Below are positions 4,003-17,892 of a stretch of 64,000 bases of DNA, piece after piece. The stretch lies in the sequence record MF327004. One strand, written 5' to 3'. Source of the DNA: Shigella phage Sf17. The translations under genes and the position numbers were made by a program. Position 1 is the first letter of the stretch, and the number at the start of each line of letters is the position of its first letter. The notes under the pieces were generated by a model, which was given only the letters and a program-made list of their open reading frames with translations, did not search any database and was not told where the DNA came from.

Positions 4003-4212
4003 TTACTCTTCAACAGATTCTTTATCTTTCTTTGAAGAAGCCTTTTTCTCTTTCTTCTTAGGCTCAGTTGCTGCAATAGCAATGTCAACAAGCTGTGCTA
4101 AGTCAGACTTAATCACTGTTACTGGTTGTTCGTTGTAGAAACCTTTCTCAAGGTACTCTTTGAACTCTTCCAGAGTGTTAAAGCCAAAAGGCTTGACAGG
4201 TGTTCTAATCAT
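4003..4212 (-). CDS. hypothetical protein (69 aa, Lys/Glu-rich C-terminus)
   Basis: ORF in minus-strand block. Confidence 0.45.
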   Translation of the reverse strand: MIRTPVKPFGFNTLEEFKEYLEKGFYNEQPVTVIKSDLAQLVDIAIAATEPKKKEKKASSKKDKESVEE

Positions 4213-4282
4213 TTACCCTCCGAGATATCTTTTAAGATTTTCTGGTTAATCATTTCCGCAATAGCATAGCGGATACAAATTA

Positions 4283-4789
4283 CTAAAATTTTAGGTTGCA
4301 TTCTTTACTTACCTCTTCAAACTTACTCTCAAACTCTACAATCTTCTTCTTGTAAGTCGTCATTCTCAAACATGATAGGATGATACCAACTATTGGAATC
4401 ACATACAAGAACCAAATCTCAGAAATTTTCTTCTCAGCTTGGTTAAACGTCAAATCTTGCATGTACACACTTCCAAAAGAGATGATACAAATCATAGCAA
4501 GAACTACAGATAACATAATTGCTATCCCTGCCCATCCTCTGGTGTTATACTCAGCATTTCTACGCTTATTTTCCAGATTGATAAGTTCGTTATAGTCGGC
4601 TGAGAAGTCTCTGTAGAAAGCTTTCAAATACTCTCTGCTGTAACCTTCAAAGCATCCTGTACCAAACCAATTTTCACCTCCGAAGTGTGAAATAGTCCCT
4701 TTATCACCGTTTGCTTTCACAATCTTGAAAGATACATGGTGCTTAGATTGCTCATAAGAAATCTGGTCTCTTGAATCTTCGTAAATCAT
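4283..4789 (-). CDS. putative membrane protein (two predicted transmembrane helices in C-terminal half)
   Basis: Hydrophobic stretches GWAGIAIMLSVVLAMICIISFG and IWFLYVIPIVGIILSCL. Confidence 0.5.
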   Translation of the reverse strand: MIYEDSRDQISYEQSKHHVSFKIVKANGDKGTISHFGGENWFGTGCFEGYSREYLKAFYRDFSADYNELINLENKRRNAEYNTRGWAGIAIMLSVVLAMICIISFGSVYMQDLTFNQAEKKISEIWFLYVIPIVGIILSCLRMTTYKKKIVEFESKFEEVSKECNLKF

Positions 4790-7860: not shown

Positions 7861-8331
7861 CTATTTTGGATAAACAGCGTCAAGGTAAATCTTGGCTTCC
7901 AAACTACGTCTATTTTGTAGACCCTTGGAAGTTACTTTTTGACCATTCACTGTAATCTTGTTCCACCACTGCATAGCTTCTGCACAACCAGCTTTGTTAC
8001 CAGCATTGTGACGCTTGATAAAAGTTGAATCCTGCATAGCACCGATGCCAATGTTGTAAGTCTCTACAACAAGTGCGTCAAATTCGTTCTGCGTAGTTGG
8101 AACCTTAATTGCTCTGTTTACTGCACCTACATAGTTCTCAACATCTGCAAGGAGATATTGTTCAGCTTGCTCGGCAGTAATCTTCATCCCCATCGTAACA
8201 GGTCTTCCGTTGATACGAATTGTACCATAACCAATTGTAGGGATTCCAGCAGAGTCTTTATAGGCTTCTAAACGAAGCCCTTCAAAGAACTTAATGGCTT
8301 CTAAGCCTTTACTTGAGAGTTGCATTATCAA
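7861..8331 (-). CDS. endolysin, T4-lysozyme-like (glycoside hydrolase family 24)
   Basis: N-terminal motif FEGLRLEAYKDSAGIPTIGYGT matches the Glu-Asp-Thr catalytic spacing of T4 lysozyme. Confidence 0.85.
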   Translation of the reverse strand: MIMQLSSKGLEAIKFFEGLRLEAYKDSAGIPTIGYGTIRINGRPVTMGMKITAEQAEQYLLADVENYVGAVNRAIKVPTTQNEFDALVVETYNIGIGAMQDSTFIKRHNAGNKAGCAEAMQWWNKITVNGQKVTSKGLQNRRSLEAKIYLDAVYPK

Positions 8332-9212
8332 CCTCCTACTGCGTTAATAACCACCTTGGCAGATTGGGATGTGATTGAGCCACCTACACCAGTTACAACA
8401 CAAGAGTAAGTACCTTCATCATCAGCTTTAGAAGTCGGTGTCTTTTCATATGTTGCAGATGTTGCTGAAGGGATATCTACATCATCTTTCTTCCACTGAT
8501 AACCAGTTGCACCAGTGGCTACGATGCTAAGGGTGAGTGTATCTCCCTCTGTAATCTCTTGGTTAGTAGGTTGCTGTGTAATCACAGGCAGTGCATTCAC
8601 AGTTACTGTGGCAGCGTTGGAATTAACACTTGAGCCACCTTCACCAGAAACTACACAGGTGTATGCGCCAGCATCAGTAGGGACTACGCCATTCTTAGTA
8701 TATGTTGCAGAGGTTGCTCCAGAGATGTTTGATGCACCTTTCTTCCACTGATAACCAGTTGCACCAGTAGCAACAACTGAAAGTGTAAGTGTTCCACCCT
8801 CGTTAACAGTTTGGTCAGTTGGCTGCTGTGTAATAACTGGAGGTGTGATTGCATCCTTCAACTTTGCATTAAGCATGGAGAAAGGTTTAACCCTTGCCAA
8901 CCATTCACAATAAACTGTGTCAACATCCTTCCCATTGATGATTGCATACTGCAAGTCCATGAAGAAGTCAGCAGTCCTCATCTGAGCACCAACTGAATAT
9001 AAAAGTTCTTCACTAAATGGAACTGTGTAGTCTGGTGTGTAATTGAAGTCAGTAACTTCTGGAATATCAGACTCAGGCCACGGTGAGCTATATGTCAGAG
9101 GCAGAACGGCCTCTTGATACTTTCTGAAGTCGTATCTTTTGCCAGCTTTAACATTCGCTACAAAGTCTTTAACGAACTCTTTAAAATCTGGATATGTCTT
9201 TGCTTTAATCAT
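8328..9212 (-). CDS. hypothetical protein with N-terminal domain paralogous to adjacent gene and two tandem Ig-like C-terminal repeats
   Basis: Two ~90-aa repeats (PVITQQPT.Q...TLTLS.VATGATGYQWKK...Y.CVV.G.GGS) also seen as DNA repeats; N-terminal 120 aa aligns to ORF 9209-9577. Confidence 0.55.
   Translation of the reverse strand: MIKAKTYPDFKEFVKDFVANVKAGKRYDFRKYQEAVLPLTYSSPWPESDIPEVTDFNYTPDYTVPFSEELLYSVGAQMRTADFFMDLQYAIINGKDVDTVYCEWLARVKPFSMLNAKLKDAITPPVITQQPTDQTVNEGGTLTLSVVATGATGYQWKKGASNISGATSATYTKNGVVPTDAGAYTCVVSGEGGSSVNSNAATVTVNALPVITQQPTNQEITEGDTLTLSIVATGATGYQWKKDDVDIPSATSATYEKTPTSKADDEGTYSCVVTGVGGSITSQSAKVVINAVGG
8350..8880 (-). repeat. intragenic tandem duplication (~270 bp x 2) encoding Ig-like domains
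   Basis: Exact repeat ttcttccactgataaccagttgcaccagt occurs twice with similar flanks. Confidence 0.6.
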
Positions 9213-9577
9213 TTCTTAGCCTCTAATCTTGCATTTAGTCTAAAATAACCTTTGTGCTGCGGTGAAACATCACCTACAACAACTCCGTCAATCTTATAGC
9301 CTTTACCCATCACATATTGAATATCCATCAAAAATGTACCAAGACCAACGATATGAAACATTGGGTAAAGAAGTTCTTCAGTATCTGGTAGAGGAATTTT
9401 AGGTGTGTATTCGGAATATGTTTCGGTAGGGTTGATATCCTTCTCAGGCCATTTGCTATCACGCCATGTTAAGGGTGTCGGAAGTACATCATCAAGATTA
9501 TACCTGTCACCTTCTTGAACACTTTGGACATAAGATTGTAGGAAGCAATAAAAGTCTTTTCCACTCTTTGCCTTCAT
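9209..9577 (-). CDS. hypothetical protein, paralog of N-terminal domain of 8328-9212
   Basis: Shared motifs PLTWRDSKWPEKDI/PLTYSSPWPESDI, EELLY, FLMDIQYV/FFMDLQYA, LNARLE/LNAKLK. Confidence 0.5.
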   Translation of the reverse strand: MKAKSGKDFYCFLQSYVQSVQEGDRYNLDDVLPTPLTWRDSKWPEKDINPTETYSEYTPKIPLPDTEELLYPMFHIVGLGTFLMDIQYVMGKGYKIDGVVVGDVSPQHKGYFRLNARLEAKK

Positions 9578-11200: not shown

Positions 11201-11276
11201 TAAAAAGGTGTTGACAGGTTCTAAATCAAACGTTAGAGTCTGTCTCACCAAAACATTCTAACGAGAGAGAATTAAT

Positions 11277-12692
11277 ATGAGCGAATTATTTAAGCACTCG
11301 CATTTACATGCAGGTTTAACTGAAAATGGTGCTGTTAACCACACCTCTTCAATGTCTGCACTGGTAGATTTCTACAAAGCTGCTGGTTCAAGCAGAACAA
11401 ATGTAGAGGTTCTTCCAAACTTGTTTTACAAGGCAATGCGAGAAGATATTGATGTAGCAGTTCGAATCCTGTTACATATGCGAGATGCACGAGAAGGTAT
11501 GGGTGAGCGTAAAGCGTTCCGTTATACTCTTACTAAAGCAATCTCTGACGGGATTCTTGATGAGTTCCAAGTATTACGTATCATGGACAAGATTTCTGAT
11601 TTAGGTCGTTATGATGACTTTAAAATCTTTGTTGGTACACGTTACGAAACAGATGCTTTCAAGCATTTAGAATCGGCACTGTTAGACCCTGCAACATCGG
11701 CTCTGGCAGCAAAATGGTTACCACGAGTAAAATCACGACACATGCGTTTTGTTCGTCGTTTCTGTAAGTTTGCAAATCTTTCAGAGAAGCAGTATCGAGT
11801 TCTTCTGTCAGCACTGTCTGACACTGTTGAACAAAAGATTTCAGCAAATGAGTTCGGAGAGATTGATTACAGCAAGCTTCCTTCACTGGCTGCTGCACGT
11901 TATCAAAAACTCTTCAGTCGTAAAGATGGTGAGCGTTATGCAGCATACATTGCAGCACTGACTAAAGGTGAGACAAAGATTAATGCTGGTGCAGTCTACC
12001 CTTATGACATTACAAAGTCAGTCGGTTATGGTAATGCAACCGTTGCAAATGAGCAGTGGAAAGCTTTACCAAACTGGATGAAAGAGGGTGAGAACATTCT
12101 GTGCATGGCAGATGTATCTTCATCTATGACTTGGGAGCGACATGGTTCTGTTACAGCGCTAGACATTGGTGTATCTTTAGCCCTGTACGTTTCAGAACGT
12201 AATACAGGTTGCTTTAAAGATGAATTGATGGTTTACTCTAGCAGACCTCACTTCATCACATTGAGTGGTGATTTACAGACTCGCTTACGTCAAGTGAAGA
12301 GTCATGTAGAGTATGGTTCAACTGACCTACAAGCTGCTTTTGCAAGAATCCTTGAGATTGGTGTTAAAAACAACTTGACTCAGAAAGAGATGCCTAGTAA
12401 GCTTATCATCTTCTCTGATATGCAGTTTAATCAGGTTGATGGAGCAGATGGTCGTACTAACTTTGAAGCAATTCAAGAAAAGTACAAGAAAGCTGGATAT
12501 GAGATGCCACAACTGGTATTCTGGTACTTAGCAAACCGTAACGGTACTTGCGAAGTGTCTGTAAAGGATAACGGTGTAGCGATGGTATCTGGTTTCTCTC
12601 CAGCCACTTTAAAAGCTTTGCTTGGTGGTGAGAAGTTTGACCCTATCAGCGTAATGCTCAAAGCAGTAATGGTTGAACGCTACGATTGGTAA
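11277..12692 (+). CDS. von Willebrand factor A (vWA) domain protein with MIDAS motif; N-terminal ~270 aa unassigned (possibly TROVE/Ro60-like, unverified)
   Basis: DxSxS motif in CMADVSSSMTWERHG followed by vWA-like alternation of hydrophobic strands; 471-aa ORF. Confidence 0.55.
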   Translation: MSELFKHSHLHAGLTENGAVNHTSSMSALVDFYKAAGSSRTNVEVLPNLFYKAMREDIDVAVRILLHMRDAREGMGERKAFRYTLTKAISDGILDEFQVLRIMDKISDLGRYDDFKIFVGTRYETDAFKHLESALLDPATSALAAKWLPRVKSRHMRFVRRFCKFANLSEKQYRVLLSALSDTVEQKISANEFGEIDYSKLPSLAAARYQKLFSRKDGERYAAYIAALTKGETKINAGAVYPYDITKSVGYGNATVANEQWKALPNWMKEGENILCMADVSSSMTWERHGSVTALDIGVSLALYVSERNTGCFKDELMVYSSRPHFITLSGDLQTRLRQVKSHVEYGSTDLQAAFARILEIGVKNNLTQKEMPSKLIIFSDMQFNQVDGADGRTNFEAIQEKYKKAGYEMPQLVFWYLANRNGTCEVSVKDNGVAMVSGFSPATLKALLGGEKFDPISVMLKAVMVERYDW

Positions 12693-12710: not shown

Positions 12711-12739
12711 TTGACAAAGTGTTTAATACCCTTTAATAT
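12711..12739 (+). promoter_or_regulatory. putative sigma70-like promoter embedded in a hairpin
   Basis: TTGACA 12711-12716, 17-bp spacer, TAATAT 12734-12739; flanked by inverted repeat AAGGGTATT/AATACCCTT. Confidence 0.45.
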
Positions 12740-12800
12740 GTTCTACATAGAAACGAAAAAGAAGTTTTCTGAAATAAATCAAATTATTTTAAAAAACCTC

Positions 12801-12830
12801 TTGACAGACACTAAAAAATAGTGTTATAGT
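12801..12830 (+). promoter_or_regulatory. putative sigma70-like promoter for the tRNA array
   Basis: TTGACA 12801-12806, 18-bp spacer, TATAGT 12825-12830, about 28 nt before first tRNA. Confidence 0.5.
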
Positions 12831-12857: not shown

Positions 12858-12937
12858 CTCCGTTTAGCTCAGTTTGGTTTAGCAGCACTTGCTTTGGGAG
12901 CAAGGGGTCGAAGGTTCAAATCCTTCAACGGAGACCA
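12858..12937 (+). tRNA. tRNA-Pro (anticodon TGG)
   Basis: Manual fold: acceptor CTCCGTT/AACGGAG, anticodon loop tt-TGG-ga, T-arm GAAGGTTCAAATCCTTC, encoded CCA. Confidence 0.55.
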
Positions 12938-12944
12938 AATTATA

Positions 12945-13020
12945 TTCCCGTAGACAAATTAGGTAAAGTCAACACCCTTTCAAGGTGTGGTTTGAGGGTT
13001 CAAGTCCCTTCGGGAATGCC
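12945..13020 (+). tRNA. tRNA-Glu (anticodon TTC)
   Basis: Acceptor ATTCCCG/CGGGAAT, anticodon stem ACACC/GGTGT with loop ct-TTC-aa, T-loop TTCAAGT, CCA. Confidence 0.6.
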
Positions 13021-13027
13021 AGTTTTG

Positions 13028-13100
13028 ACAGAAGACCAATTACAGCAAACAAACTTTTCAATTTCGCGCATAGAAATCCAAAAAAGATTTGGTCTGGTCA
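13028..13100 (+). repeat. structured repeat element R1 (candidate small RNA, not a tRNA)
   Basis: Conserved 5-prime cAGAAGACCaaTTACAGCAAACA and 3-prime tttGGTCTGGTca ends that can pair (AGACCAA/TTGGTCT); AT-rich interior. Confidence 0.45.
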
Positions 13101-13108
13101 TTAAGAAT

Positions 13109-13185
13109 TGCGGGTATAGAGAAAGGGTGTCTCACATGTCTCATTAGCATGTTATCGGTAGGTTCGACTCCTACACCCGCCTCCA
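13109..13185 (+). tRNA. tRNA-Met (anticodon CAT)
   Basis: Acceptor with 6 bp plus terminal mismatch, anticodon loop ct-CAT-ta, T-arm GTAGGTTCGACTCCTAC, CCA. Confidence 0.45.
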
Positions 13186-13190
13186 AATTT

Positions 13191-13260
13191 ACAGAAGGCC
13201 GTTTACAGCAAACACTTAAAATTTTTTATAGGCAAAAAATGAAAAGATACGGTCTGGTAA
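13191..13260 (+). repeat. structured repeat element R2
   Basis: Same conserved ends as R1 (cagaaGGCCGTttacagcaaaca ... atACGGTCTGGTaat). Confidence 0.45.
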
Positions 13261-13269
13261 TACTAACAT

Positions 13270-13346
13270 GGTTAGGAAGCACATAAGGCATGTGCGGTCG
13301 GCTGTTAACCGAATGGTACAGGGTTCGAATCCCTGACTAACCGCCA
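13270..13346 (+). tRNA. tRNA-Asn (anticodon GTT), unusual D-arm
   Basis: Anticodon loop ct-GTT-aa, T-arm CAGGGTTCGAATCCCTG, acceptor ACTAACC-G-CCA; D-region forms 5-bp hairpin GCACAtaaggcaTGTGC. Confidence 0.45.
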
Positions 13347-13410
13347 AGATTTGGGAGAGAAGCGATTGCTCACCGATTTGTAAGGTGCAAGTCCTTAGCC
13401 TGAATAGAAT
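13347..13410 (+). other. tRNA-like fragment (T-arm-like AAGGTGCAAGTCCTT without acceptor or CCA)
   Basis: Contains T-arm-like hairpin but no complementary acceptor strands were found. Confidence 0.25.
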
Positions 13411-13415
13411 AAAAT

Positions 13416-13503
13416 GCGTCGTTATCCCGTAGATGGAAGCGGTGGTGACTGTAAATCACTTGTCATTATGACTCGGGAGGTTCGACTCCTTCACGGCGCA
13501 CCA
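13416..13503 (+). tRNA. tRNA-Tyr (anticodon GTA), long variable arm
   Basis: Acceptor GCGTCGT/ACGGCGC, anticodon loop ct-GTA-aa, extra arm, T-arm GGAGGTTCGACTCCTTC, CCA. Confidence 0.5.
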
Positions 13504-13509
13504 AATAAA

Positions 13510-13586
13510 GGTTATGTAGTTTAACTGGTCAAAATACCTCCCTGTCACGGAGGATGATGAGGGTTCGAATCCCTTCGTAACCGCCA
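13510..13586 (+). tRNA. tRNA-Asp (anticodon GTC)
   Basis: Acceptor GGTTATG/CGTAACC, anticodon stem CCTCC/GGAGG with loop ct-GTC-ac, T-arm GAGGGTTCGAATCCCTT, CCA. Confidence 0.55.
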
Positions 13587-13616
13587 AATTTGAGAGGGCT
13601 TTTTAGCCCCTCCCTT

Positions 13617-13648
13617 AAAGAGTTCTTACGAGTATTCTTTAAAGGAGC
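13617..13648 (+). repeat. palindromic spacer element cttaaagaGTTCTTACGAGtattctttaaagg
   Basis: Related copies at 14541-14570 and 16778-16805. Confidence 0.4.
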
Positions 13649-13724
13649 AGAAGACCAAATACAGCAAGCAATTTTAATATTTCAAGCCAATTTAATTTGA
13701 AAAATTTAAAACTTGGTCTGGTTC
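13647..13724 (+). repeat. structured repeat element R3
   Basis: gcAGAAGACCAAatacagcaagca ... acttGGTCTGGTtcc. Confidence 0.45.
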
Positions 13725-13734
13725 CAACAATTTT

Positions 13735-13865
13735 ACAGAAGACCGTTTACAGCAAACAATAAACAATCTATTTCTCTGGTAAAGAAAAGGCGAAGGTTCG
13801 ATTCCTTCACACGTTACGGCGTGTTGGTGTAATGGAAGCACTTAAGATAAATACGGTCTGGTAAT
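13735..13865 (+). repeat. structured repeat element R4 (long variant containing a tRNA T-arm-like hairpin GAAGGTTCGATTCCTTC)
   Basis: Same conserved ends (cagaAGACCGTttacagcaaaca ... atACGGTCTGGTaat); ~110-nt interior includes a perfect T-arm mimic and hairpin ACACGttacggCGTGT. Confidence 0.45.
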
Positions 13866-13868
13866 CCT

Positions 13869-14001
13869 CTTTGCAGTGACTTATGGAGCTAACCAGTCGT
13901 CCCATGAGTGCCGAAGAGTCTCTTGAGCATGATTCTAGATTAGCTTACTAAGAGATGACTCTACAAACCCTTTAGCAAGGTTTGCGTAGGTTACTGCAAA
14001 G
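13869..14001 (+). ncRNA. candidate structured small RNA S1 (closed by 9-bp helix CTTTGCAGT/ACTGCAAAG)
   Basis: Terminal 9-bp inverted repeat about 115 nt apart plus internal hairpins (GAGTCTCTT...AAGAGAtGACTC; CAAACCctttagcaaGGTTTG); no ORF, no tRNA fold. Confidence 0.35.
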
Positions 14002-14011
14002 ATGATTTAAT

Positions 14012-14087
14012 GGAAGTGTAGCAGAATGGTGATGCGGCAGACTTTTAATCTGACAGGCGACGGGTTCGAATCCCTCCACTTCTACCA
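14012..14087 (+). tRNA. tRNA-Lys (anticodon TTT)
   Basis: Acceptor GGAAGTG/CACTTCT, anticodon loop ct-TTT-aa, T-loop TTCGAAT, CCA. Confidence 0.5.
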
Positions 14088-14092
14088 AATTC

Positions 14093-14159
14093 GCCCCTTA
14101 ACTGAAGAACACATGCGCGGCTGGAAACACCCACTCAATCATTTCTCTACAAAGGGGCA
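14093..14159 (+). other. hairpin-bounded spacer element (GCCCCTT ... AAGGGGC, ~55-nt interior)
   Basis: 7-bp inverted repeat enclosing a non-tRNA sequence. Confidence 0.3.
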
Positions 14160-14168
14160 ACTTATAAT

Positions 14169-14245
14169 GGTTCAGTCGCAGATAAGGTAATGCAAGGGTT
14201 TCATAAGCCCTATGAATGTGGGTTCGATTCCCACCTGAACCTCCA
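14169..14245 (+). tRNA. tRNA with anticodon CAT (Met, initiator or Ile2-type)
   Basis: Acceptor GGTTCAG/CTGAACC, anticodon loop tt-CAT-aa, T-arm GTGGGTTCGATTCCCAC, CCA. Confidence 0.55.
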
Positions 14246-14247
14246 AT

Positions 14248-14323
14248 GCTGGTATAGTTAAGAAGGTTATAACACTCCCCTGATAAGGGAATATCGGTGG
14301 TTCGATTCCACCTACCAGTACCA
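14248..14323 (+). tRNA. tRNA-Ile (anticodon GAT)
   Basis: Acceptor GCTGGTA/TACCAGT, anticodon loop ct-GAT-aa, T-arm GGTGGTTCGATTCCACC, CCA. Confidence 0.6.
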
Positions 14324-14337
14324 AATTTCATAAAGTT

Positions 14338-14367
14338 GTTGACATTAAGATGTGACCACTTTAAGAT
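14338..14367 (+). promoter_or_regulatory. putative internal sigma70-like promoter within the tRNA array
   Basis: TTGACA 14338-14343, 18-bp spacer, TAAGAT 14362-14367. Confidence 0.4.
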
Positions 14368-14571
14368 AACCTTAGTTTTCGTTAGCGTAGCGTCTATTTT
14401 AAAAACTTAAAAATAAATGCAAACGATAATGTTTTTCTGGCAGTAGCTTAATAGGCTAAACACCAGCAGGGTATTCCAACCCCCTGTTAAAGAATTTGGC
14501 GTACTAGCCCACGGTATGATTAATAAAGTGGGCATCTTTAAGGGTTTTCTAAGAGAGCCTTTAAAGATAAT

Positions 14572-14648
14572 GCACCCTTAGTTCAAACGGATAGAGCAAC
14601 GGTCTTCTAAACCGTCAGTTACAGGTTCGAATCCTGTAGGGTGTGCCA
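14572..14648 (+). tRNA. tRNA-Arg (anticodon TCT)
   Basis: Acceptor GCACCCT/AGGGTGT, D-arm TAGTTCAAACGGATAGAGC, anticodon loop ct-TCT-aa, T-arm CAGGTTCGAATCCTG, CCA. Confidence 0.6.
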
Positions 14649-14656
14649 ATTTTAAT

Positions 14657-14777
14657 GGTCAAGACAACACGAGTAAGTTATCTTGGATACGCGTTAAGAG
14701 ATAAACGAAAGTCGGATAGTTGCTGAAGGGTAGCTCCCTTTAATAGTAAGTAGGTTCGACTCCTACCTTGACTGCCA
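14657..14777 (+). other. tRNA-like element with T-arm and 3-prime CCA but ambiguous body (too long or missing anticodon arm)
   Basis: 3-prime GTAGGTTCGACTCCTAC-CTTGACT-G-CCA; candidate 5-prime acceptor at 14657 gives ~120 nt, at 14710 gives ~68 nt. Confidence 0.3.
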
Positions 14778-14942
14778 ATTAGTTAGCAGATTACTATGAC
14801 GACCTTTATGGGTCTCCGCATTGACTTGAAAGAGTCAATCTCATAAGGAGGTGGTCTGTATCTCATGTTTTCCAGAACATGTAAATAATCTGAGAAGAAG
14901 CTTGACAGTGTTGAGATAACAGGGTAAGCTTCGAAATATAGT

Positions 14943-15025
14943 ATGGGACGATGTTAAGACACTAAGGCATGTGCGTAAGCCTCCAAAACTTACTCAAAGG
15001 GGTTCGAATCCTCCGTCCCATGCCA
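14943..15025 (+). tRNA. tRNA, probably Trp (anticodon CCA) with mismatched closing pair
   Basis: Acceptor ATGGGAC/GTCCCAT, anticodon region GTAAGc-ctCCAaa-aCTTAC, T-loop TTCGAAT, CCA; D-region hairpin like the Asn tRNA. Confidence 0.4.
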
Positions 15026-15038
15026 AAGTCTTATTAGG

Positions 15039-15126
15039 GGTAGGTAGCGGCTAATGGAAGCCAAACTGTCTTGAAAACAGTTGCCATTGTAGAGATACGG
15101 TGAGGGTTCGACTCCTTTATCTACCG
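15039..15126 (+). tRNA. tRNA-Ser (anticodon TGA), long variable arm, no encoded CCA
   Basis: Acceptor GGTAGGT/ATCTACC, anticodon stem ACTGT/ACAGT loop ct-TGA-aa, long extra arm, T-loop TTCGACT. Confidence 0.55.
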
Positions 15127-15381
15127 CCTAATAAGATTTAAAGCTGAGACTATTTGTTCGAGCAAGTGTTTCAGGTTTCCTCTTCGTGTATTGGCGTACA
15201 CGGCACTGGTAAAGCACCTAGTAGGTGTCACGGAGAAGAGATAGTATCAAGCTCTCCAAAGGTTCTAGTCACCGGATTAAGCAAGACTATGCAAAGGCCA
15301 ATAGGTCTTTTTAGAGAATTGTTAAGGCATTTGATACCATTGTTGCTTTGGCGTCTTAGCAGTTCTCTACAAAGATTTAAT

Positions 15382-15458
15382 GCACCTATAGCCCAATTGG
15401 AAGAGGCAGCAGACTTAGAATCTGCTCAGTGTGAGTTCGAATCTCTCTAGGTGTACCA
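15382..15458 (+). tRNA. tRNA with anticodon TAG (Leu-type anticodon; short variable arm in manual fold)
   Basis: Acceptor GCACCTA/TAGGTGT, anticodon stem GCAGA/TCTGC loop ct-TAG-aa, T-loop TTCGAAT, CCA; 77 nt. Confidence 0.4.
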
Positions 15459-15465
15459 AATTAAT

Positions 15466-15541
15466 GCAGGTGTAGCAAAATGGTTATGCGGCTGACTCTT
15501 AATCAGTAAGACGATGGGTTCAATTCCCTCCACCTGTACCA
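15466..15541 (+). tRNA. tRNA, tentatively Lys (anticodon CTT)
   Basis: Acceptor GCAGGTG/CACCTGT, anticodon loop ct-CTT-aa, T-loop TTCAATT, CCA. Confidence 0.4.
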
Positions 15542-15547
15542 AACAAT

Positions 15548-15623
15548 GGGGATGTAGTTTACATGGTTAAAACATAAGTTTTGCAAACTTAAGTACAGGG
15601 TTCAATTCCCTGCTTCTCCACCA
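15548..15623 (+). tRNA. tRNA-Ala (anticodon TGC)
   Basis: Anticodon stem TAAGT/ACTTA loop tt-TGC-aa, T-arm CAGGGTTCAATTCCCTG, CCA. Confidence 0.55.
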
Positions 15624-15629
15624 ATTAGT

Positions 15630-15704
15630 GCATCCATAGTTTAAATGGGAAAATTACAGTCTTCCAAACTGAGGTTGAGGGTTCGATTCCCTCTGGATGC
15701 TCCA
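15630..15704 (+). tRNA. tRNA-Gly (anticodon TCC)
   Basis: Acceptor GCATCCA/TGGATGC, anticodon loop ct-TCC-aa, T-arm GAGGGTTCGATTCCCTC, CCA. Confidence 0.6.
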
Positions 15705-15710
15705 AATAAT

Positions 15711-15787
15711 GCTGCTTTCGTATAATTGGCTATTGCACATCCCTTGTAAGGATGGAGATGCAGGTTCGAGTCCTGTGAGCAGCACCA
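15711..15787 (+). tRNA. tRNA-Thr (anticodon TGT)
   Basis: Acceptor GCTGCTT/GAGCAGC, anticodon stem CATCC/GGATG loop ct-TGT-aa, T-loop TTCGAGT, CCA. Confidence 0.6.
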
Positions 15788-15792
15788 ATTTT

Positions 15793-15885
15793 GAGGTCAA
15801 GTGAAAGACCGCTTGAGTCAACTGAAGACCGTAACAAATTCCACGGAGTTGAGTTAGCGGCACAGCTTCAGACCTCTTCAAAGCT
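15793..15885 (+). ncRNA. candidate structured element S3 (nested inverted repeats GAGGTC...GACCTC and CTGAAG...CTTCAG)
   Basis: Non-tRNA spacer with nested helices; contains GAAGACCG word shared with R elements. Confidence 0.3.
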
Positions 15886-15892
15886 CGCTTAG

Positions 15893-15967
15893 TTTATATG
15901 GTAAAGCCCCATCCTTACAAGTTGGTGAAGAAGGTTCAAGTCCTTCAGCGAGTACCAAGTTCCAGTA
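15893..15967 (+). tRNA. tRNA-Val (anticodon TAC)
   Basis: Acceptor GCTCGCT/AGCGAGT, anticodon loop ct-TAC-aa, T-arm GAAGGTTCAAGTCCTTC, CCA. Confidence 0.55.
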
Positions 15968-15968
15968 T

Positions 15969-16046
15969 CCCAATTGGCAGAGGATGCAAGCTCAAACCTT
16001 GTATTAGTGACGGTTCGAATCCGTCTTGGAACACCAATTTTAGGAG
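15969..16046 (+). tRNA. tRNA with anticodon CAA (Leu-type anticodon; short variable arm in manual fold)
   Basis: Acceptor GTTCCAG/TTGGAAC, anticodon stem GCAAG/CTTGT loop ct-CAA-ac, T-arm GACGGTTCGAATCCGTC, CCA. Confidence 0.4.
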
Positions 16047-16052
16047 ATTCCT

Positions 16053-16265
16053 ATGAAGCCTTATGGTAGACATGGTAAAGTTGAAATTGCAAGTTGTGGC
16101 TGCTGTGCAGCACATGATGGTGAAGAAGATTATTACAAATGGCGTACAGACCATCGTAAACGCTTTCTCAGAAGAGATAAGAAGAGAGCTAGACAGGAAT
16201 CTCAAAAGGATATTGCAGAATTAGTTCAAATGGACAGAGCAGCAACCTACGAAGTTGTTAGTTAG
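16053..16265 (+). CDS. possible small basic protein (70 aa) whose 3-prime third overlaps tRNA-Arg; may be spurious
   Basis: AGGAGA ribosome-binding site 6 nt upstream of ATG; last ~17 codons lie inside tRNA-Arg(ACG). Confidence 0.25.
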   Translation: MKPYGRHGKVEIASCGCCAAHDGEEDYYKWRTDHRKRFLRRDKKRARQESQKDIAELVQMDRAATYEVVS

Positions 16266-16291
16266 GGGTTCGAATCCTCTATTCTGCACCA
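16215..16291 (+). tRNA. tRNA-Arg (anticodon ACG)
   Basis: Acceptor GCAGAAT/ATTCTGC, anticodon stem GCAAC/GTTGT loop ct-ACG-aa, T-loop TTCGAAT, CCA. Confidence 0.55.
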
Positions 16292-16309
16292 AATTTAATA
16301 GGTAACATT

Positions 16310-16537
16310 ATGTATAAACTCATAGTTGAAAAACATAAAGATGACCACAAGATTGAAACAGGTAGATTTGGAGATACTTTCTTTATAGCGGTTGGTTGGC
16401 AATGTGACCCGTTAGAAGTTAGAAAGATTGTTTATAACTTTGCTGGATTAGAACTTAAGCAAGCTATCTTCGAAACATCACTACCTGAAAATAAGGATAC
16501 TTGCAATAACGCATATATTCTTTCAAGAGTTCGTTAG
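16310..16537 (+). CDS. possible small protein (75 aa) between tRNA genes
   Basis: ORF fills the gap between two tRNAs; weak ribosome-binding site. Confidence 0.3.
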   Translation: MYKLIVEKHKDDHKIETGRFGDTFFIAVGWQCDPLEVRKIVYNFAGLELKQAIFETSLPENKDTCNNAYILSRVR

Positions 16538-16611
16538 GGGATTAGTTTACAAGGTTAAAACCTCGGTCTTTGAAATCGAAGAAGATGGTTCAATTCCATC
16601 ATCCCCCGCCA
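16536..16611 (+). tRNA. tRNA-Gln (anticodon TTG)
   Basis: Anticodon stem TCGGT/ATCGA loop ct-TTG-aa, T-arm GATGGTTCAATTCCATC, CCA; first acceptor pair mismatched. Confidence 0.5.
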
Positions 16612-16613
16612 AT

Positions 16614-16692
16614 GCTCCATTACTCCAATTGGCAGAGAGGCCAGATTTAAAATCTGTGTTATGTATCGGTTCGAATCCGATATGGAGTACCA
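16614..16692 (+). tRNA. tRNA with anticodon TAA (Leu-type anticodon; short variable arm in manual fold)
   Basis: Acceptor GCTCCAT/ATGGAGT, anticodon stem CCAGA/TCTGT loop tt-TAA-aa, T-arm ATCGGTTCGAATCCGAT, CCA. Confidence 0.4.
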
Positions 16693-16698
16693 AATATT

Positions 16699-16774
16699 AG
16701 CAGTATAGCATAACTGGCAATGCTCCAGCCTCTGAAGCTGAAAGATTAAGGTTCAAATCCTTATACTGCTGCCA
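16699..16774 (+). tRNA. tRNA-Gln (anticodon CTG)
   Basis: Acceptor AGCAGTA/TACTGCT, D-arm GCATaactggcaaTGC, anticodon loop ct-CTG-aa, T-arm TAAGGTTCAAATCCTTA, CCA. Confidence 0.55.
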
Positions 16775-16805
16775 CTTCTAAGGGTTCTTACGAGAGTCCT
16801 TAAAT

Positions 16806-16882
16806 GTGGCCTTATCATAAATGGATAATGACCCATGCTGTGAACATGGTCTATACGGGTTCGATTCCCGTAGGTCACCCCA
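16806..16882 (+). tRNA. tRNA-His (anticodon GTG)
   Basis: Acceptor GTGGCCT/AGGTCAC, anticodon stem CCATG/CATGG loop ct-GTG-aa, T-arm ACGGGTTCGATTCCCGT, CCA. Confidence 0.6.
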
Positions 16883-16888
16883 ATTTAA

Positions 16889-16966
16889 TAGCTCAATTAG
16901 CTTATATGGTTAAAGCGCGTGTCTGAAAAACATGAGAACAGGGTTCAAATCCCGATGGGCTACCAA
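16889..16966 (+). tRNA. tRNA, tentatively Phe (anticodon GAA); imperfect T-stem
   Basis: Acceptor TAGCTCA/TGGGCTA, D-stem GCTT/AAGC, anticodon loop ct-GAA-aa, T-loop TTCAAAT. Confidence 0.4.
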
Positions 16967-16981
16967 CTTTATAGGTGCATA

Positions 16982-17716
16982 ATGAAAGAGATGACAGAAC
17001 AAAGTAAAGAGATTTTTAATCTCCTTAAAGCTGGTAATGGTTTCTCAAACCCTCTTATTACTGGTGCAGCAGTTCTTGGTGGTACTATAGCTGCCTCTCA
17101 ATCATTAGTTAACTCAATTAGTTCTGTAACAGACCCAGCTACACAACAGATTTTAGTTGCTGCTGGACTGACAACAGCCTTATTAGGAAGCTTCACAACA
17201 AGCCTTGGAAGTACAACTTCAACGACAAGTACACTTACTGAGTATGGACAAAAGTCTGTAGATGAGTTTTCACAACGTATGCAAGTAGCCAAAGGTTACT
17301 CTAACGTTATGGGAGCAGCAGGTGAACAGGTTGGATGTACACCATTTAGCGGTATCATGGGCGTAGCTACCGAGTACGGTAATAAAGCGATGGATTTGAT
17401 TAATACCTCCATAGACGCTGTAAATGGCGTTCTAAGCGATTTGCAAGATGCAATCGACCAAGGACTAGATACAATCTCTGAACTCGCTACACAGGCCGTT
17501 ACAGCAATTAATGAGGGTATTGCAAAGATTACTGCATATGCTAATGAAGTAACTCAGATGATTGCAGATGAAGCAGCACTGATTGCAGAATACCTGAAAA
17601 CAAATATTAATGGTTTCCTTGCGAATGTTCTACCAAGCTGGTTTGATGATTCATGTAAAACTGGTGTGATTGATACTATCGCAACTCCAGAGATGAAAGA
17701 AGCTCTGAACAAATAA
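16982..17716 (+). CDS. hypothetical Ala/Thr/Ser-rich protein embedded in the tRNA array (start trimmed from 16919)
   Basis: ORF-track start at 16919 is a GTG inside the preceding tRNA; first ATG clear of the tRNA is 16982. Confidence 0.45.
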   Translation: MKEMTEQSKEIFNLLKAGNGFSNPLITGAAVLGGTIAASQSLVNSISSVTDPATQQILVAAGLTTALLGSFTTSLGSTTSTTSTLTEYGQKSVDEFSQRMQVAKGYSNVMGAAGEQVGCTPFSGIMGVATEYGNKAMDLINTSIDAVNGVLSDLQDAIDQGLDTISELATQAVTAINEGIAKITAYANEVTQMIADEAALIAEYLKTNINGFLANVLPSWFDDSCKTGVIDTIATPEMKEALNK

Positions 17717-17717
17717 T

Positions 17718-17810
17718 GGAAGATTAACCCTAAAAGGTAAGGGAGCAGTTTGCTAAACTGCCAGTAACCGAGAAATCGGCGTACCAGTTCAAGTCTGGTA
17801 TCTTCCTCCA
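17718..17810 (+). tRNA. tRNA-Ser (anticodon GCT), long variable arm
   Basis: Acceptor GGAAGAT/ATCTTCC, anticodon stem GCAGT/ACTGC loop tt-GCT-aa, extra arm, T-arm ACCAGTTCAAGTCTGGT, CCA. Confidence 0.6.
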
Positions 17811-17816
17811 AATTAT

Positions 17817-17892
17817 GTGTCGGTGTCAGAAATGGTTATGTGCCTGTCTGCAAAACAGGTTTATGAGGGTTCGAGTCCCTTCCGATACTCCA
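17817..17892 (+). tRNA. tRNA-Cys (anticodon GCA)
   Basis: Acceptor GTGTCGG/CCGATAC, anticodon stem CCTGT/ACAGG loop ct-GCA-aa, T-arm GAGGGTTCGAGTCCCTT, CCA. Confidence 0.6.

What the first reader, a model, noticed from the sequence alone, without database searches (positions are those of the whole stretch)
11277..12692. vWA/MIDAS protein encoded immediately upstream of the tRNA and structured-RNA array
The 471-aa protein has a clear MIDAS motif (DVSSS) in a C-terminal vWA-like domain and an unassigned ~270-aa N-terminal domain. A vWA domain preceded by an RNA-binding TROVE domain is the architecture of Ro60/Rsr proteins, which bind tRNA-like Y RNAs; here the gene sits next to an array containing non-tRNA structured elements, some with T-arm mimics. 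The Ro60-like assignment is a hypothesis, not something established from the sequence.
Basis: partly seen in the sequence, partly recalled or inferred. Interest (0 to 1): 0.7.

Follow-up and report, generated by a model that had tools for sequence, protein, structure and literature searches.

The report
Phage Ro60-like protein with Y-like RNAs
A Shigella phage gene beside its tRNA cluster encodes a distant relative of the Ro60 RNA-surveillance ring, and four unannotated small RNAs hidden between the tRNAs look like its Y-RNA partners, a protein-RNA pairing that recurs in many unrelated phages.

The parts
11211..11239 (+). sigma-70-like promoter (TTGACA-17-TAGAGT) 38 nt upstream of the Ro60-like gene
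   Evidence: 10 of 12 consensus matches. This is a consensus match only, not shown to be functional.
11277..12692 (+). Ro60-like ring protein gene, 471 aa: a divergent TROVE-like alpha-helical N-terminal part (about aa 1-270) followed by a vWA/MIDAS domain (about aa 275-455). Pfam DUF2828+DUF7788, PHROG 850.
   Evidence: Orthologue of Bas63 gp130.
12111..12125 (+). codons for the MIDAS motif DVSSS (aa 279-283)
   Evidence: Coordinates derived from the ORF start.
12711..12830 (+). two near-consensus sigma-70-like promoters (12711-12739, and 12801-12830 with a TG-extended -10) between the gene and the array
   Evidence: 10/12 and 11/12 matches
12858..17892 (+). array of 26 tRNA genes on the same strand as the gene, with non-tRNA spacers
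13026..13100 (+). E1, short Y-like RNA between tRNA-Glu and tRNA-Met: outer 4-bp helix, AGA/G internal loop, 7-bp helix AGACCAA/UUGGUCU, UUACAGCAA (core 13042-13048), variable hairpin
   Evidence: (R1 53.0 bits). Weak RF01414 match at 21.3 bits.
13189..13260 (+). E2, short Y-like RNA between tRNA-Met and tRNA-Asn: helix AGGCCGU/ACGGUCU, core ACAGCAA 13205-13211
   Evidence: (R1 56.2 bits). Weak RF01414 match at 22.2 bits.
13645..13724 (+). E3, short Y-like RNA after tRNA-Asp: helix AGACCAA/UUGGUCU, core 13661-13667
   Evidence: (R1 52.3 bits)
13733..13864 (+). E4, long YrlA-like RNA: helix AGACCGU/ACGGUCU, core 13749-13755, T-arm 13792-13808, middle stem-loop 13809-13824, D-arm-like 13827-13841
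   Evidence: sub-threshold tRNA hit 13742-13816, 28.8 bits; R1 17.9 bits, cut short by the long insert; consensus structure, 19 of 24 pairs compensatory

Best explanation
The gene encodes a divergent member of the Ro60/TROVE superfamily: an alpha-helical repeat ring closed by a vWA/MIDAS domain. This is the DUF2828/DUF7788 branch, which is widespread in large phages. The adjacent tRNA array also encodes four Y-RNA-like partners in its spacers, three short (E1-E3) and one long (E4). They share a terminal helix whose second pair is an invariant G-C, a single-stranded UUACAGCAA directly after the 5' strand, and an N-G after the 3' strand. E4 adds a permuted tRNA-like module (T-arm, stem-loop, D-arm) like bacterial YrlA. 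The proposed mechanism has three steps. First, the RNAs are transcribed with the tRNAs from the promoters at about 12711 and 12801 and are cut out by the tRNA-processing enzymes. Second, the helix plus UUACAGCAA module docks on the protein, taking the place of the GNCGAA bulged helix that canonical Ro60 recognises. Third, as with Ro60-Y RNA particles, the RNA gates or tethers the ring to other RNA enzymes or substrates, giving the phage an RNA or tRNA surveillance and counter-defence module. Shown here: protein homology and fold; existence, covariation, strand bias and gene linkage of the RNA element. Shown by others for the orthologue: the protein counters the Ppl defence. Inferred: RNA release from the array, direct binding, and the downstream mechanism.
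Against: No binding or expression data exist for E1-E4. Pfam TROVE does not match. Rfam YrlA does not match E4 even at E<=10, and the related long forms stay below the gathering score of 69. The canonical Ro60-binding motif GNCGAAN0-1G is absent. Single-sequence folding energies of E1-E4 are unremarkable (z -0.25 to -1.56). The elements in the covariation alignment were selected for having a stem, so the 99.4% figure is partly circular. About half of the distant loci show no element within the flanks examined. KVP40-like loci have only weak upstream copies and no R1 hit. Bas63 gp130 alone rescues T7 from Ppl, and T7 has no such RNAs, so the RNAs are not strictly required for that activity.
Confidence: 0.72

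Rival explanations
1. The ACAGCAA hairpins are cis-acting mRNA or precursor elements rather than free-standing Y-like RNAs. They could be translational operators for autoregulation of the gene, 3'-UTR stabilisers, or processing signals in the tRNA precursor. The protein might still bind them.
For: In several lineages a copy sits 15-75 nt upstream of the start codon (L023, L026, L037, L077, L082). In others a copy lies 28-64 nt after the stop codon, where a 3' UTR would be. In the window they occupy tRNA spacers, where processing signals are expected.
Against: In the window they are separated from the gene by two promoter-like sites and two tRNAs, and there are four copies. Tandem arrays of 2-3 copies are common. 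The long forms carry a complete tRNA-like module that matches Rfam YrlA in two lineages, which an operator would not need.
Confidence: 0.15
2. The protein works on its own as a direct protein-level inhibitor of a host defence, for example through its vWA/MIDAS face binding Ppl. The neighbouring RNA elements would then serve another factor or have no role in its activity.
For: gp130 of Bas63, expressed alone from a plasmid or from the T7 genome, restores T7 plaquing on a Ppl host. vWA/MIDAS domains are classic protein-protein interaction modules (one search hit list).
Against: The gene-RNA linkage persists across phages of Proteobacteria, Firmicutes, Actinobacteria and Campylobacter at 30-45% protein identity. 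That is hard to explain without a functional coupling. Overexpressed protein may use host RNAs, and Y RNAs in known systems act as regulators rather than obligatory cofactors.
Confidence: 0.15
3. It is a generic vWA protein of unrelated function, and both the Ro60 resemblance and the position next to tRNAs are coincidental.
For: Pfam lists only domains of unknown function, and phmmer against PDB sequences finds nothing.
Confidence: 0.02

Closest known systems
Bas63 (Escherichia phage JohannRWettstein) gp130, PhageMaP preprint, PMC11482910
   Same: Syntenic orthologue, 83% identical, same flanking genes and tRNA order. The authors note structural similarity to Ro60 and its position upstream of the tRNAs, and suggest Y RNAs may be present. 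They show it counters the Ppl defence and can be transferred to T7.
   Different: They guessed that some annotated tRNA genes might be Y RNAs. Here the candidates are four unannotated elements in the spacers, two of them under spurious minus-strand ORFs bas63_0137/0138. The preprint reports no RNA motif, no family-wide linkage and no sequence-level homology to TROVE.
Bacterial Rsr (Ro60) with YrlA/YrlB Y RNAs, and mycobacteriophage YrlA (Chen et al. 2014, PMC4201824)
   Same: A ring protein with vWA/MIDAS. The partner RNA is encoded within a few kb on the same strand. The long RNA has a terminal protein-binding helix plus a tRNA-like T-arm, stem-loop and D-arm domain, and shorter RNAs without the tRNA-like part can sit alongside. 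There is a link to tRNAs and RtcB repair.
   Different: The protein does not reach Pfam TROVE. The RNA lacks the GNCGAAN0-1G motif and has UUACAGCAA instead. Rfam YrlA scores only 38-39 bits for the best relatives and nothing for E4. The RNAs are interleaved with tRNA genes. R1 finds nothing in canonical TROVE loci.
Thermus phage phiLo phiRo60 with Yrl1/Yrl2 (PMC12135203; PDB 9KOP, 9L5Y)
   Different: phiRo60 is a true TROVE-family protein. Its Yrl RNAs carry the CGAA motif, and its locus has no R1 hit.
Dictyostelium Class I RNAs (Rfam RF01414; Kjellin et al. 2021, PMC7919456)
   Same: Small RNAs (42-65 nt there, 53-70 nt for the phage short forms). A short terminal helix joins the 5' and 3' ends, with a conserved G-C pair at the end. 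A conserved single-stranded motif lies directly after the 5' strand (Rfam consensus C-CUUACAGCAA; phage UUACAGCAA). The 3' tail is ..C-U-G and the rest is variable. It is the only Rfam family these elements touch, five times, always exactly on an element.
   Different: All hits are below the gathering score (17.6-28.8 bits against 41.5). The G-to-motif spacing differs by one nucleotide. Class I RNAs are eukaryotic, have their own DUSE promoter, and are reported as unique to Dictyostelia, with Rnp1A as the only named binding protein. Whether Dictyostelium has a DUF2828 protein could not be tested here.
Phage T4 stable RNAs species 1 and 2 (RNA C and D) in its tRNA cluster (from my own knowledge, not tested here)
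   Same: Small stable non-tRNA RNAs of unknown function, encoded among phage tRNA genes and matured by the tRNA-processing machinery.
   Different: No known protein partner, and no sequence comparison was made here.

Membership tests
Ro60/TROVE superfamily (protein) | Matches the Pfam TROVE domain model PF05731 | tested here: not met
   No PF05731 hit for the window protein at E<=1, nor for any of 42 family members. The control phiLo Ro60 does hit it.
Ro60/TROVE superfamily (protein) | Sequence-profile homology to TROVE proteins over both domains | tested here: met
   HHalign A1 against A4: probability 99.06%, E 1.7e-18, 411 columns, query 11-460 against template 34-495.
Ro60/TROVE superfamily (protein) | Alpha-helical repeat domain plus vWA forming the Ro60 fold | tested here: met
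Ro60/TROVE superfamily (protein) | vWA domain with MIDAS DxSxS...T...D | tested here: met
   D279, S281, S283, T349 and D381 are invariant and align to the Ro60 MIDAS.
Ro60/TROVE superfamily (protein) | Binds Y RNA and misfolded RNA | not testable with these tools
   Only indirect evidence: conserved linkage to a structured RNA element.
Pfam DUF2828 + DUF7788 / PHROG 850 | Scores above the curated cut-offs | tested here: met
   PF25043 150.4 bits (cut-off 27.1), PF11443 95.2 bits (cut-off 29). phrog_850 E 2.7e-178, full length.
YrlA Y RNA (Rfam RF02553), for element E4 | Reaches the Rfam gathering score (69 bits) | tested here: not met
   No RF02553 hit on 13000-13900 at E<=10. The only window hit (21.6 bits) lies over tRNA-His/Phe. 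Homologous long forms score 39.3 (Snenia) and 38.2 (L017).
YrlA Y RNA (Rfam RF02553), for element E4 | tRNA-like domain in the order T-arm, stem-loop, D-arm, enclosed by a terminal helix | tested here: met
   RNAalifold consensus of 9 long forms, 19 of 24 pairs with compensatory changes. Window coordinates.
YrlA Y RNA (Rfam RF02553), for element E4 | GNCGAAN0-1G Ro60-binding motif in the terminal helix (Chen 2014) | tested here: not met
   The position is occupied by UUACAGCAA in all elements. Motif definition taken.
YrlA Y RNA (Rfam RF02553), for element E4 | Encoded within 4 kb of the Ro60 gene on the same strand | tested here: met
   E1-E4 lie 334-1172 nt downstream on the same strand.
Dictyostelium Class I RNA (Rfam RF01414), for E1-E3 | Reaches the Rfam gathering score (41.5 bits) | tested here: not met
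   22.2, 21.3 and 17.6 bits in the window; 28.8 and 28.2 bits in L030 and L020.
Dictyostelium Class I RNA (Rfam RF01414), for E1-E3 | Short terminal stem plus a conserved 11-nt motif adjacent to the 5' strand | tested here: inconclusive
   Stem and position are met. Nine to ten of the motif letters are shared (CUUACAGCAA in L030, UUACAGCAA in the window). The spacing differs by 1 nt.
Dictyostelium Class I RNA (Rfam RF01414), for E1-E3 | Dictyostelid gene with a DUSE promoter about 60 nt upstream | tested here: not met
   These are phage genes inside a bacterial-type tRNA operon. Definition taken.

The most novel reading that the evidence does not exclude
The stem-UUACAGCAA element defines an ancient partner-RNA class for the DUF2828 branch of Ro60-like proteins, and Dictyostelium Class I RNAs are its eukaryotic members. 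Class I RNAs are abundant, developmentally regulated RNAs of unknown mechanism that are currently thought to be unique to social amoebae. On this reading Class I RNAs would act as Y-RNA-like partners of a DUF2828-type ring protein. DUF2828 proteins exist in plants and in mimivirus-like sequences, and three of the four proteins pulled down with Class I RNA DdR-21 are not named in the texts I could read.
Probability: 0.3. Interest if true: 0.9.

Novelty: new variant of a known kind. Interest (0 to 1): 0.74.

Why it matters
Ro60-Y RNA particles are a classic RNA-surveillance system and a human autoantigen. Their bacterial and phage versions are only starting to be understood. This work places a very large 'domain of unknown function' family (more than 2,400 protein clusters and 703 phage genomes, including Felix O1, KVP40, P100/A511-like, CP81 and SEP9 relatives used in biocontrol and therapy) in that superfamily, and gives it a specific, testable RNA partner with a recognition motif different from canonical Y RNAs. 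The orthologue is already known to defeat the uncharacterised Ppl defence, so the RNAs and the recurring link to tRNA arrays and RtcB suggest that Ppl and its counter-defence may act through RNA. It also corrects annotation, because small ORFs are called over these RNAs in Bas63 and Listeria WIL-1. Finally, it offers the first lead on a protein partner class for Dictyostelium Class I RNAs.

Tried and rejected
- Plain sequence searches failed to show the Ro60 link. Pfam TROVE gave no hit, NCBIfam gave nothing, and phmmer against PDB gave only noise. A family profile against PDB sequences gave only sub-significant Ro60 hits at the MIDAS segment (E 0.36-2).
- Rfam did not identify E1-E4 at gathering or permissive thresholds. 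The weak YrlA hit at 16828-16951 lies over tRNA-His/Phe and was rejected. Weak tmRNA-like hits at 14263-14505 are far below threshold and were not pursued.
- The first MAFFT alignment of the elements (A2) put the Felix-like 3' strands one column out of register (64% paired; 79.5% when slid by +1). It was replaced by end-anchored cuts (A3).
- Single-sequence folding z-scores of E1-E4 are not significant, so the case rests on comparative evidence.
- KVP40-like loci (L016, L018) have ACAGCAA about 30-70 nt upstream of the start but only weak stems and no R1 hit. They were not counted as positives.
- The AFDB50 fold library was unavailable, so the taxonomic spread in cellular organisms, including Dictyostelium, could not be read off.
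- Avesson et al. 2011 (the Class I RNA pull-down) and the Sim et al. 2020 review were not held.
- Literature searches for DUF2828 and for the motif string returned nothing relevant.
- Neighbouring ORFs (PHROGs 4114, 4034, 5064) have no known function.

Full report
**Observation**

The ORF is exactly as described: 11277-12692 on the + strand, 471 aa. Its stop codon is 166 nt upstream of the first of 26 co-oriented tRNA genes, which run from 12858 to 17892. The window is 100% identical to Shigella phage Sf15, a Felix O1-like myovirus (Ounavirinae), and the gene is conserved across about 265 close relatives. DVSSS lies at aa 279-283. Together with T349 and D381 it forms a complete MIDAS motif that is invariant in 42 homologues down to 41% identity.

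**What the protein is**

Pfam assigns DUF2828 (best stretch aa 171-269) and DUF7788 (aa 275-455). It does not assign TROVE, either for this protein or for any of 42 relatives. Ten of those relatives weakly touch the Ro60-specific vWA model PF25045. PHROGs places it full-length in phrog_850, 'RNA-binding protein', and RefSeq uses that name.

The family is large: more than 2,440 clusters at 90% identity and 703 phage records. These include KVP40-like Vibrio phages, Campylobacter CP81, Listeria P100-like phages, Staphylococcus SEP9, Enterococcus and Bacillus phages. They also include mycobacteriophages, where the 34%-identical full-length homologue is annotated 'Ro-like RNA binding protein'.

Two independent tests settle the homology.

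- **Sequence profiles.** I recovered phiLo Ro60 from its genome (it does match Pfam TROVE) and collected 26 diverse TROVE proteins. HHalign of the two family profiles gives probability 99.1%, E 1.7e-18, over 411 columns covering residues 11-460. The alignment includes an N-terminal TENGA/THEGA motif and the MIDAS site.

The protein therefore belongs to a divergent branch of the Ro60/TROVE superfamily.

**The RNAs in the window**

The spacers of the array contain a four-fold repeat. Each copy has an outer 4-bp helix, an AGA/G internal loop and a 7-bp helix (AGACCAA/UUGGUCU or AGRCCGU/ACGGUCU). A single-stranded UUACAGCAA(A/G)CA follows directly after the 5' strand, and a G directly after the 3' strand.

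- E1 (13026-13100), E2 (13189-13260) and E3 (13645-13724) enclose a simple variable hairpin.
- E4 (13733-13864) encloses a T-arm (GAAGGUUCGAUUCCUUC), a stem-loop and a D-arm-like hairpin (GUGUAAUGGAAGCAC). That is the module order of bacterial YrlA.

Each lies between tRNA genes, so tRNA processing would be expected to release it. This step is inferred. Near-consensus sigma-70-like promoters precede the gene (11211) and the array (12711, 12801).

**Comparative evidence that the element is real and goes with the gene**

I fetched 80 loci encoding relatives, 13 Felix-like and 67 at 38-45% identity.

- **Motif and strand.** ACAGCAA occurs 162 times on the gene strand and 49 times on the other strand. 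Strict elements (at least a 7-bp flanking stem, span up to 150 nt) in the 68 distant loci number 41 on the gene strand, 4 on the opposite strand, and 8.3+-2.9 in shuffled sequence.
- **Covariation.** The helix sequence differs completely between lineages (AGGUUCC/GGAACCU, GGGAUAG/CUAUCCC, UGGACACA/UGUGUCCA and others), while ACAGCAA, a G at -8, its partner C and a following N-G stay fixed. In an end-anchored alignment of 27 short forms, the 7-bp helix is 99.4% paired, against 23-44% in slid registers. Six of seven pairs show double-sided changes and one G-C pair is invariant. The elements were chosen for having a stem, so this figure alone is partly circular; the strand, shuffle and position controls are the independent evidence.
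- **Covariance model R1.** In the 64-kb window it finds only E1-E4. In the 68 distant loci all 61 hits at E<=1 are on the gene strand. Thirty-five loci have E<0.01, and 18 of those were not used for training. Thirty-three of 43 such hits lie within 600 nt of the CDS (P about 1e-24, with the caveat that some loci are related). Most positive loci have no tRNA nearby, so the element tracks the gene, not the tRNAs.
- **Cultured phages.** R1 finds tandem copies beside the gene in Listeria WIL-1, Staphylococcus SEP9, Campylobacter CP81 and Bacillus Skywalker. In Skywalker there are also copies inside gaps of its 21-tRNA array, as in this window.
- **Negative control.** R1 finds nothing in five canonical TROVE-type Ro60 loci, with filters off.

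**Link to YrlA**

In mycobacteriophage Snenia three elements follow the gene. The middle, long one encloses a full-length match to Rfam YrlA (39.3 bits, E 3e-6). A long form in an unrelated metagenomic phage (L017) matches YrlA at 38.2 bits. RNAalifold on nine long forms from four lineages independently predicts terminal helix + T-arm + stem-loop + D-arm, with 19 of 24 pairs supported by compensatory changes.

Canonical YrlA uses a GNCGAAN0-1G motif for Ro60 binding and was catalogued in genomes annotated with TROVE proteins. The RNAs here carry UUACAGCAA instead, and E4 itself is invisible to the Rfam model. They are best described as a new Y-like RNA variant matched to a divergent Ro60 branch.

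**Prior art and function**

A 2024 preprint (PMC11482910) reports several things about Bas63 gp130, which is the syntenic, 83%-identical orthologue:

- It is structurally similar to Ro60.
- It sits upstream of the tRNA genes, some of which 'are possibly Y RNAs'.
- It is needed for normal plaques on hosts carrying the Ppl defence (ATPase + PHP domain).
- Alone it rescues T7 from Ppl.

The RNAs were not identified there. R1 finds E1-E4 in Bas63 in the spacers, partly under minus-strand 'hypothetical' ORFs bas63_0137/0138. That gp130 works alone in T7 means the RNAs are not strictly required for anti-Ppl activity. In known systems Y RNAs gate or tether Ro60 rather than being obligatory.

The recurring same-strand tRNA arrays and the RtcB-type ligase and HD protein next to the Listeria homologue point to RNA or tRNA damage as the natural arena. 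This is inference.

**An unexpected resemblance**

The only Rfam family these elements touch is RF01414, Dictyostelium Class I RNA. It hits three times in the window (17.6-22.2 bits) and twice in distant loci (28.2 and 28.8 bits), always exactly on an element and always below the gathering score of 41.5. The shared features are a short terminal helix with a conserved terminal G-C, CUUACAGCAA directly after the 5' strand, a ..CUG 3' end, a variable remainder and a similar size.

Class I RNAs are reported as unique to Dictyostelia, and only one of four pulled-down proteins is named in the texts I could read. DUF2828 proteins exist in plants and in mimivirus-like sequences. I could not test whether Dictyostelium has one, because the AFDB50 library was unavailable and the pull-down paper is not held. 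This remains a lead, not a finding.

**Verdict**

The protein-level claim is essentially known from annotation and the preprint. The new contribution is a specific, conserved, strand-specific and gene-linked Y-like RNA family with a distinct recognition motif. Four copies of it, one of them YrlA-like, lie in this window's tRNA array.

Noticed in passing
window 13873-13997: A ~125-nt spacer between E4 and tRNA-Lys folds with a 13-bp closing helix (GCAGUGACUUAUG.../...CGUAGGUUACUGC). MFE -41.1 kcal/mol, z -3.33, 1 of 200 shuffles as stable. It has no ACAGCAA motif and no Rfam match.
   Followed up: partly
window 14093-14158: The spacer between tRNA-Lys and tRNA-Met is closed by a 7-bp GC-rich helix (GCCCCUU/AAGGGGC). 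z -3.69, 0 of 200 shuffles as stable. Unassigned.
   Followed up: partly
window 14657-14779 and 14941-15026: Two tRNA-like sequences with a 7-10 bp acceptor-type helix, a canonical T-arm (GGUUCGAMUCC) and an encoded CCA, but aberrant or oversized middle parts. ARAGORN and Rfam tRNA do not call them. They could be degenerate tRNAs or further tRNA mimics.
   Followed up: partly
window 13347-13415: The spacer between tRNA-Asn and tRNA-Tyr contains a T-arm-like hairpin (AAGGUGCAAGUCCUU) in a weakly stable fold (z -1.2).
   Followed up: partly
window 14263-14505: Weak sub-threshold matches to permuted tmRNA (30.4 bits, gathering 47) and alpha-tmRNA (20.2 bits). They begin in tRNA-Ile and run into a 250-nt spacer that starts with a promoter-like site (14339-14367). 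Probably driven by the tRNA-like part.
   Followed up: no
window 16919-17716: A 265-aa ORF sits inside the tRNA array between tRNA-Phe and tRNA-Ser. Its Sf13 counterpart is annotated 'predicted receptor recognition protein', which is an odd place for such a gene.
   Followed up: no
L088 (Bas63) 4030-4304; L085 (Listeria WIL-1) 2639-2911; L084 (CP81) 2861-2998: Small annotated 'hypothetical protein' ORFs overlap the R1 RNA elements, often on the opposite strand. They are probably mis-annotations over non-coding RNA genes.
   Followed up: partly
L085 (Listeria phage WIL-1) 2953-7455: The Ro60-like gene is followed within 3 kb by an HD-domain protein, an annotated 'tRNA splicing ligase' (RtcB-type) and a NADAR protein. 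This is an RNA-repair neighbourhood reminiscent of the bacterial rsr-yrlA-rtcBA arrangement.
   Followed up: no
L023, L026, L037, L077, L082 (15-75 nt upstream of the gene start): In several lineages a copy of the element sits in the presumed 5' UTR of the Ro60-like gene itself, which would fit autoregulation by the protein.
   Followed up: no
GU169904.1 Staphylococcus phage SA1, 145270-146682 (hit H34): A record labelled as a Staphylococcus phage carries an 84.5%-identical copy of this enterobacterial Felix O1-type gene. This suggests a chimeric or contaminated assembly.
   Followed up: no
window 8328-9577 (- strand): Two adjacent minus-strand ORFs (294 aa and 122 aa) share a similar N-terminal segment (MxKAK..DF..F...V..V..G.RY...). 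The longer one continues into two Ig-like repeats. They look like paralogous tail or decoration proteins.
   Followed up: no
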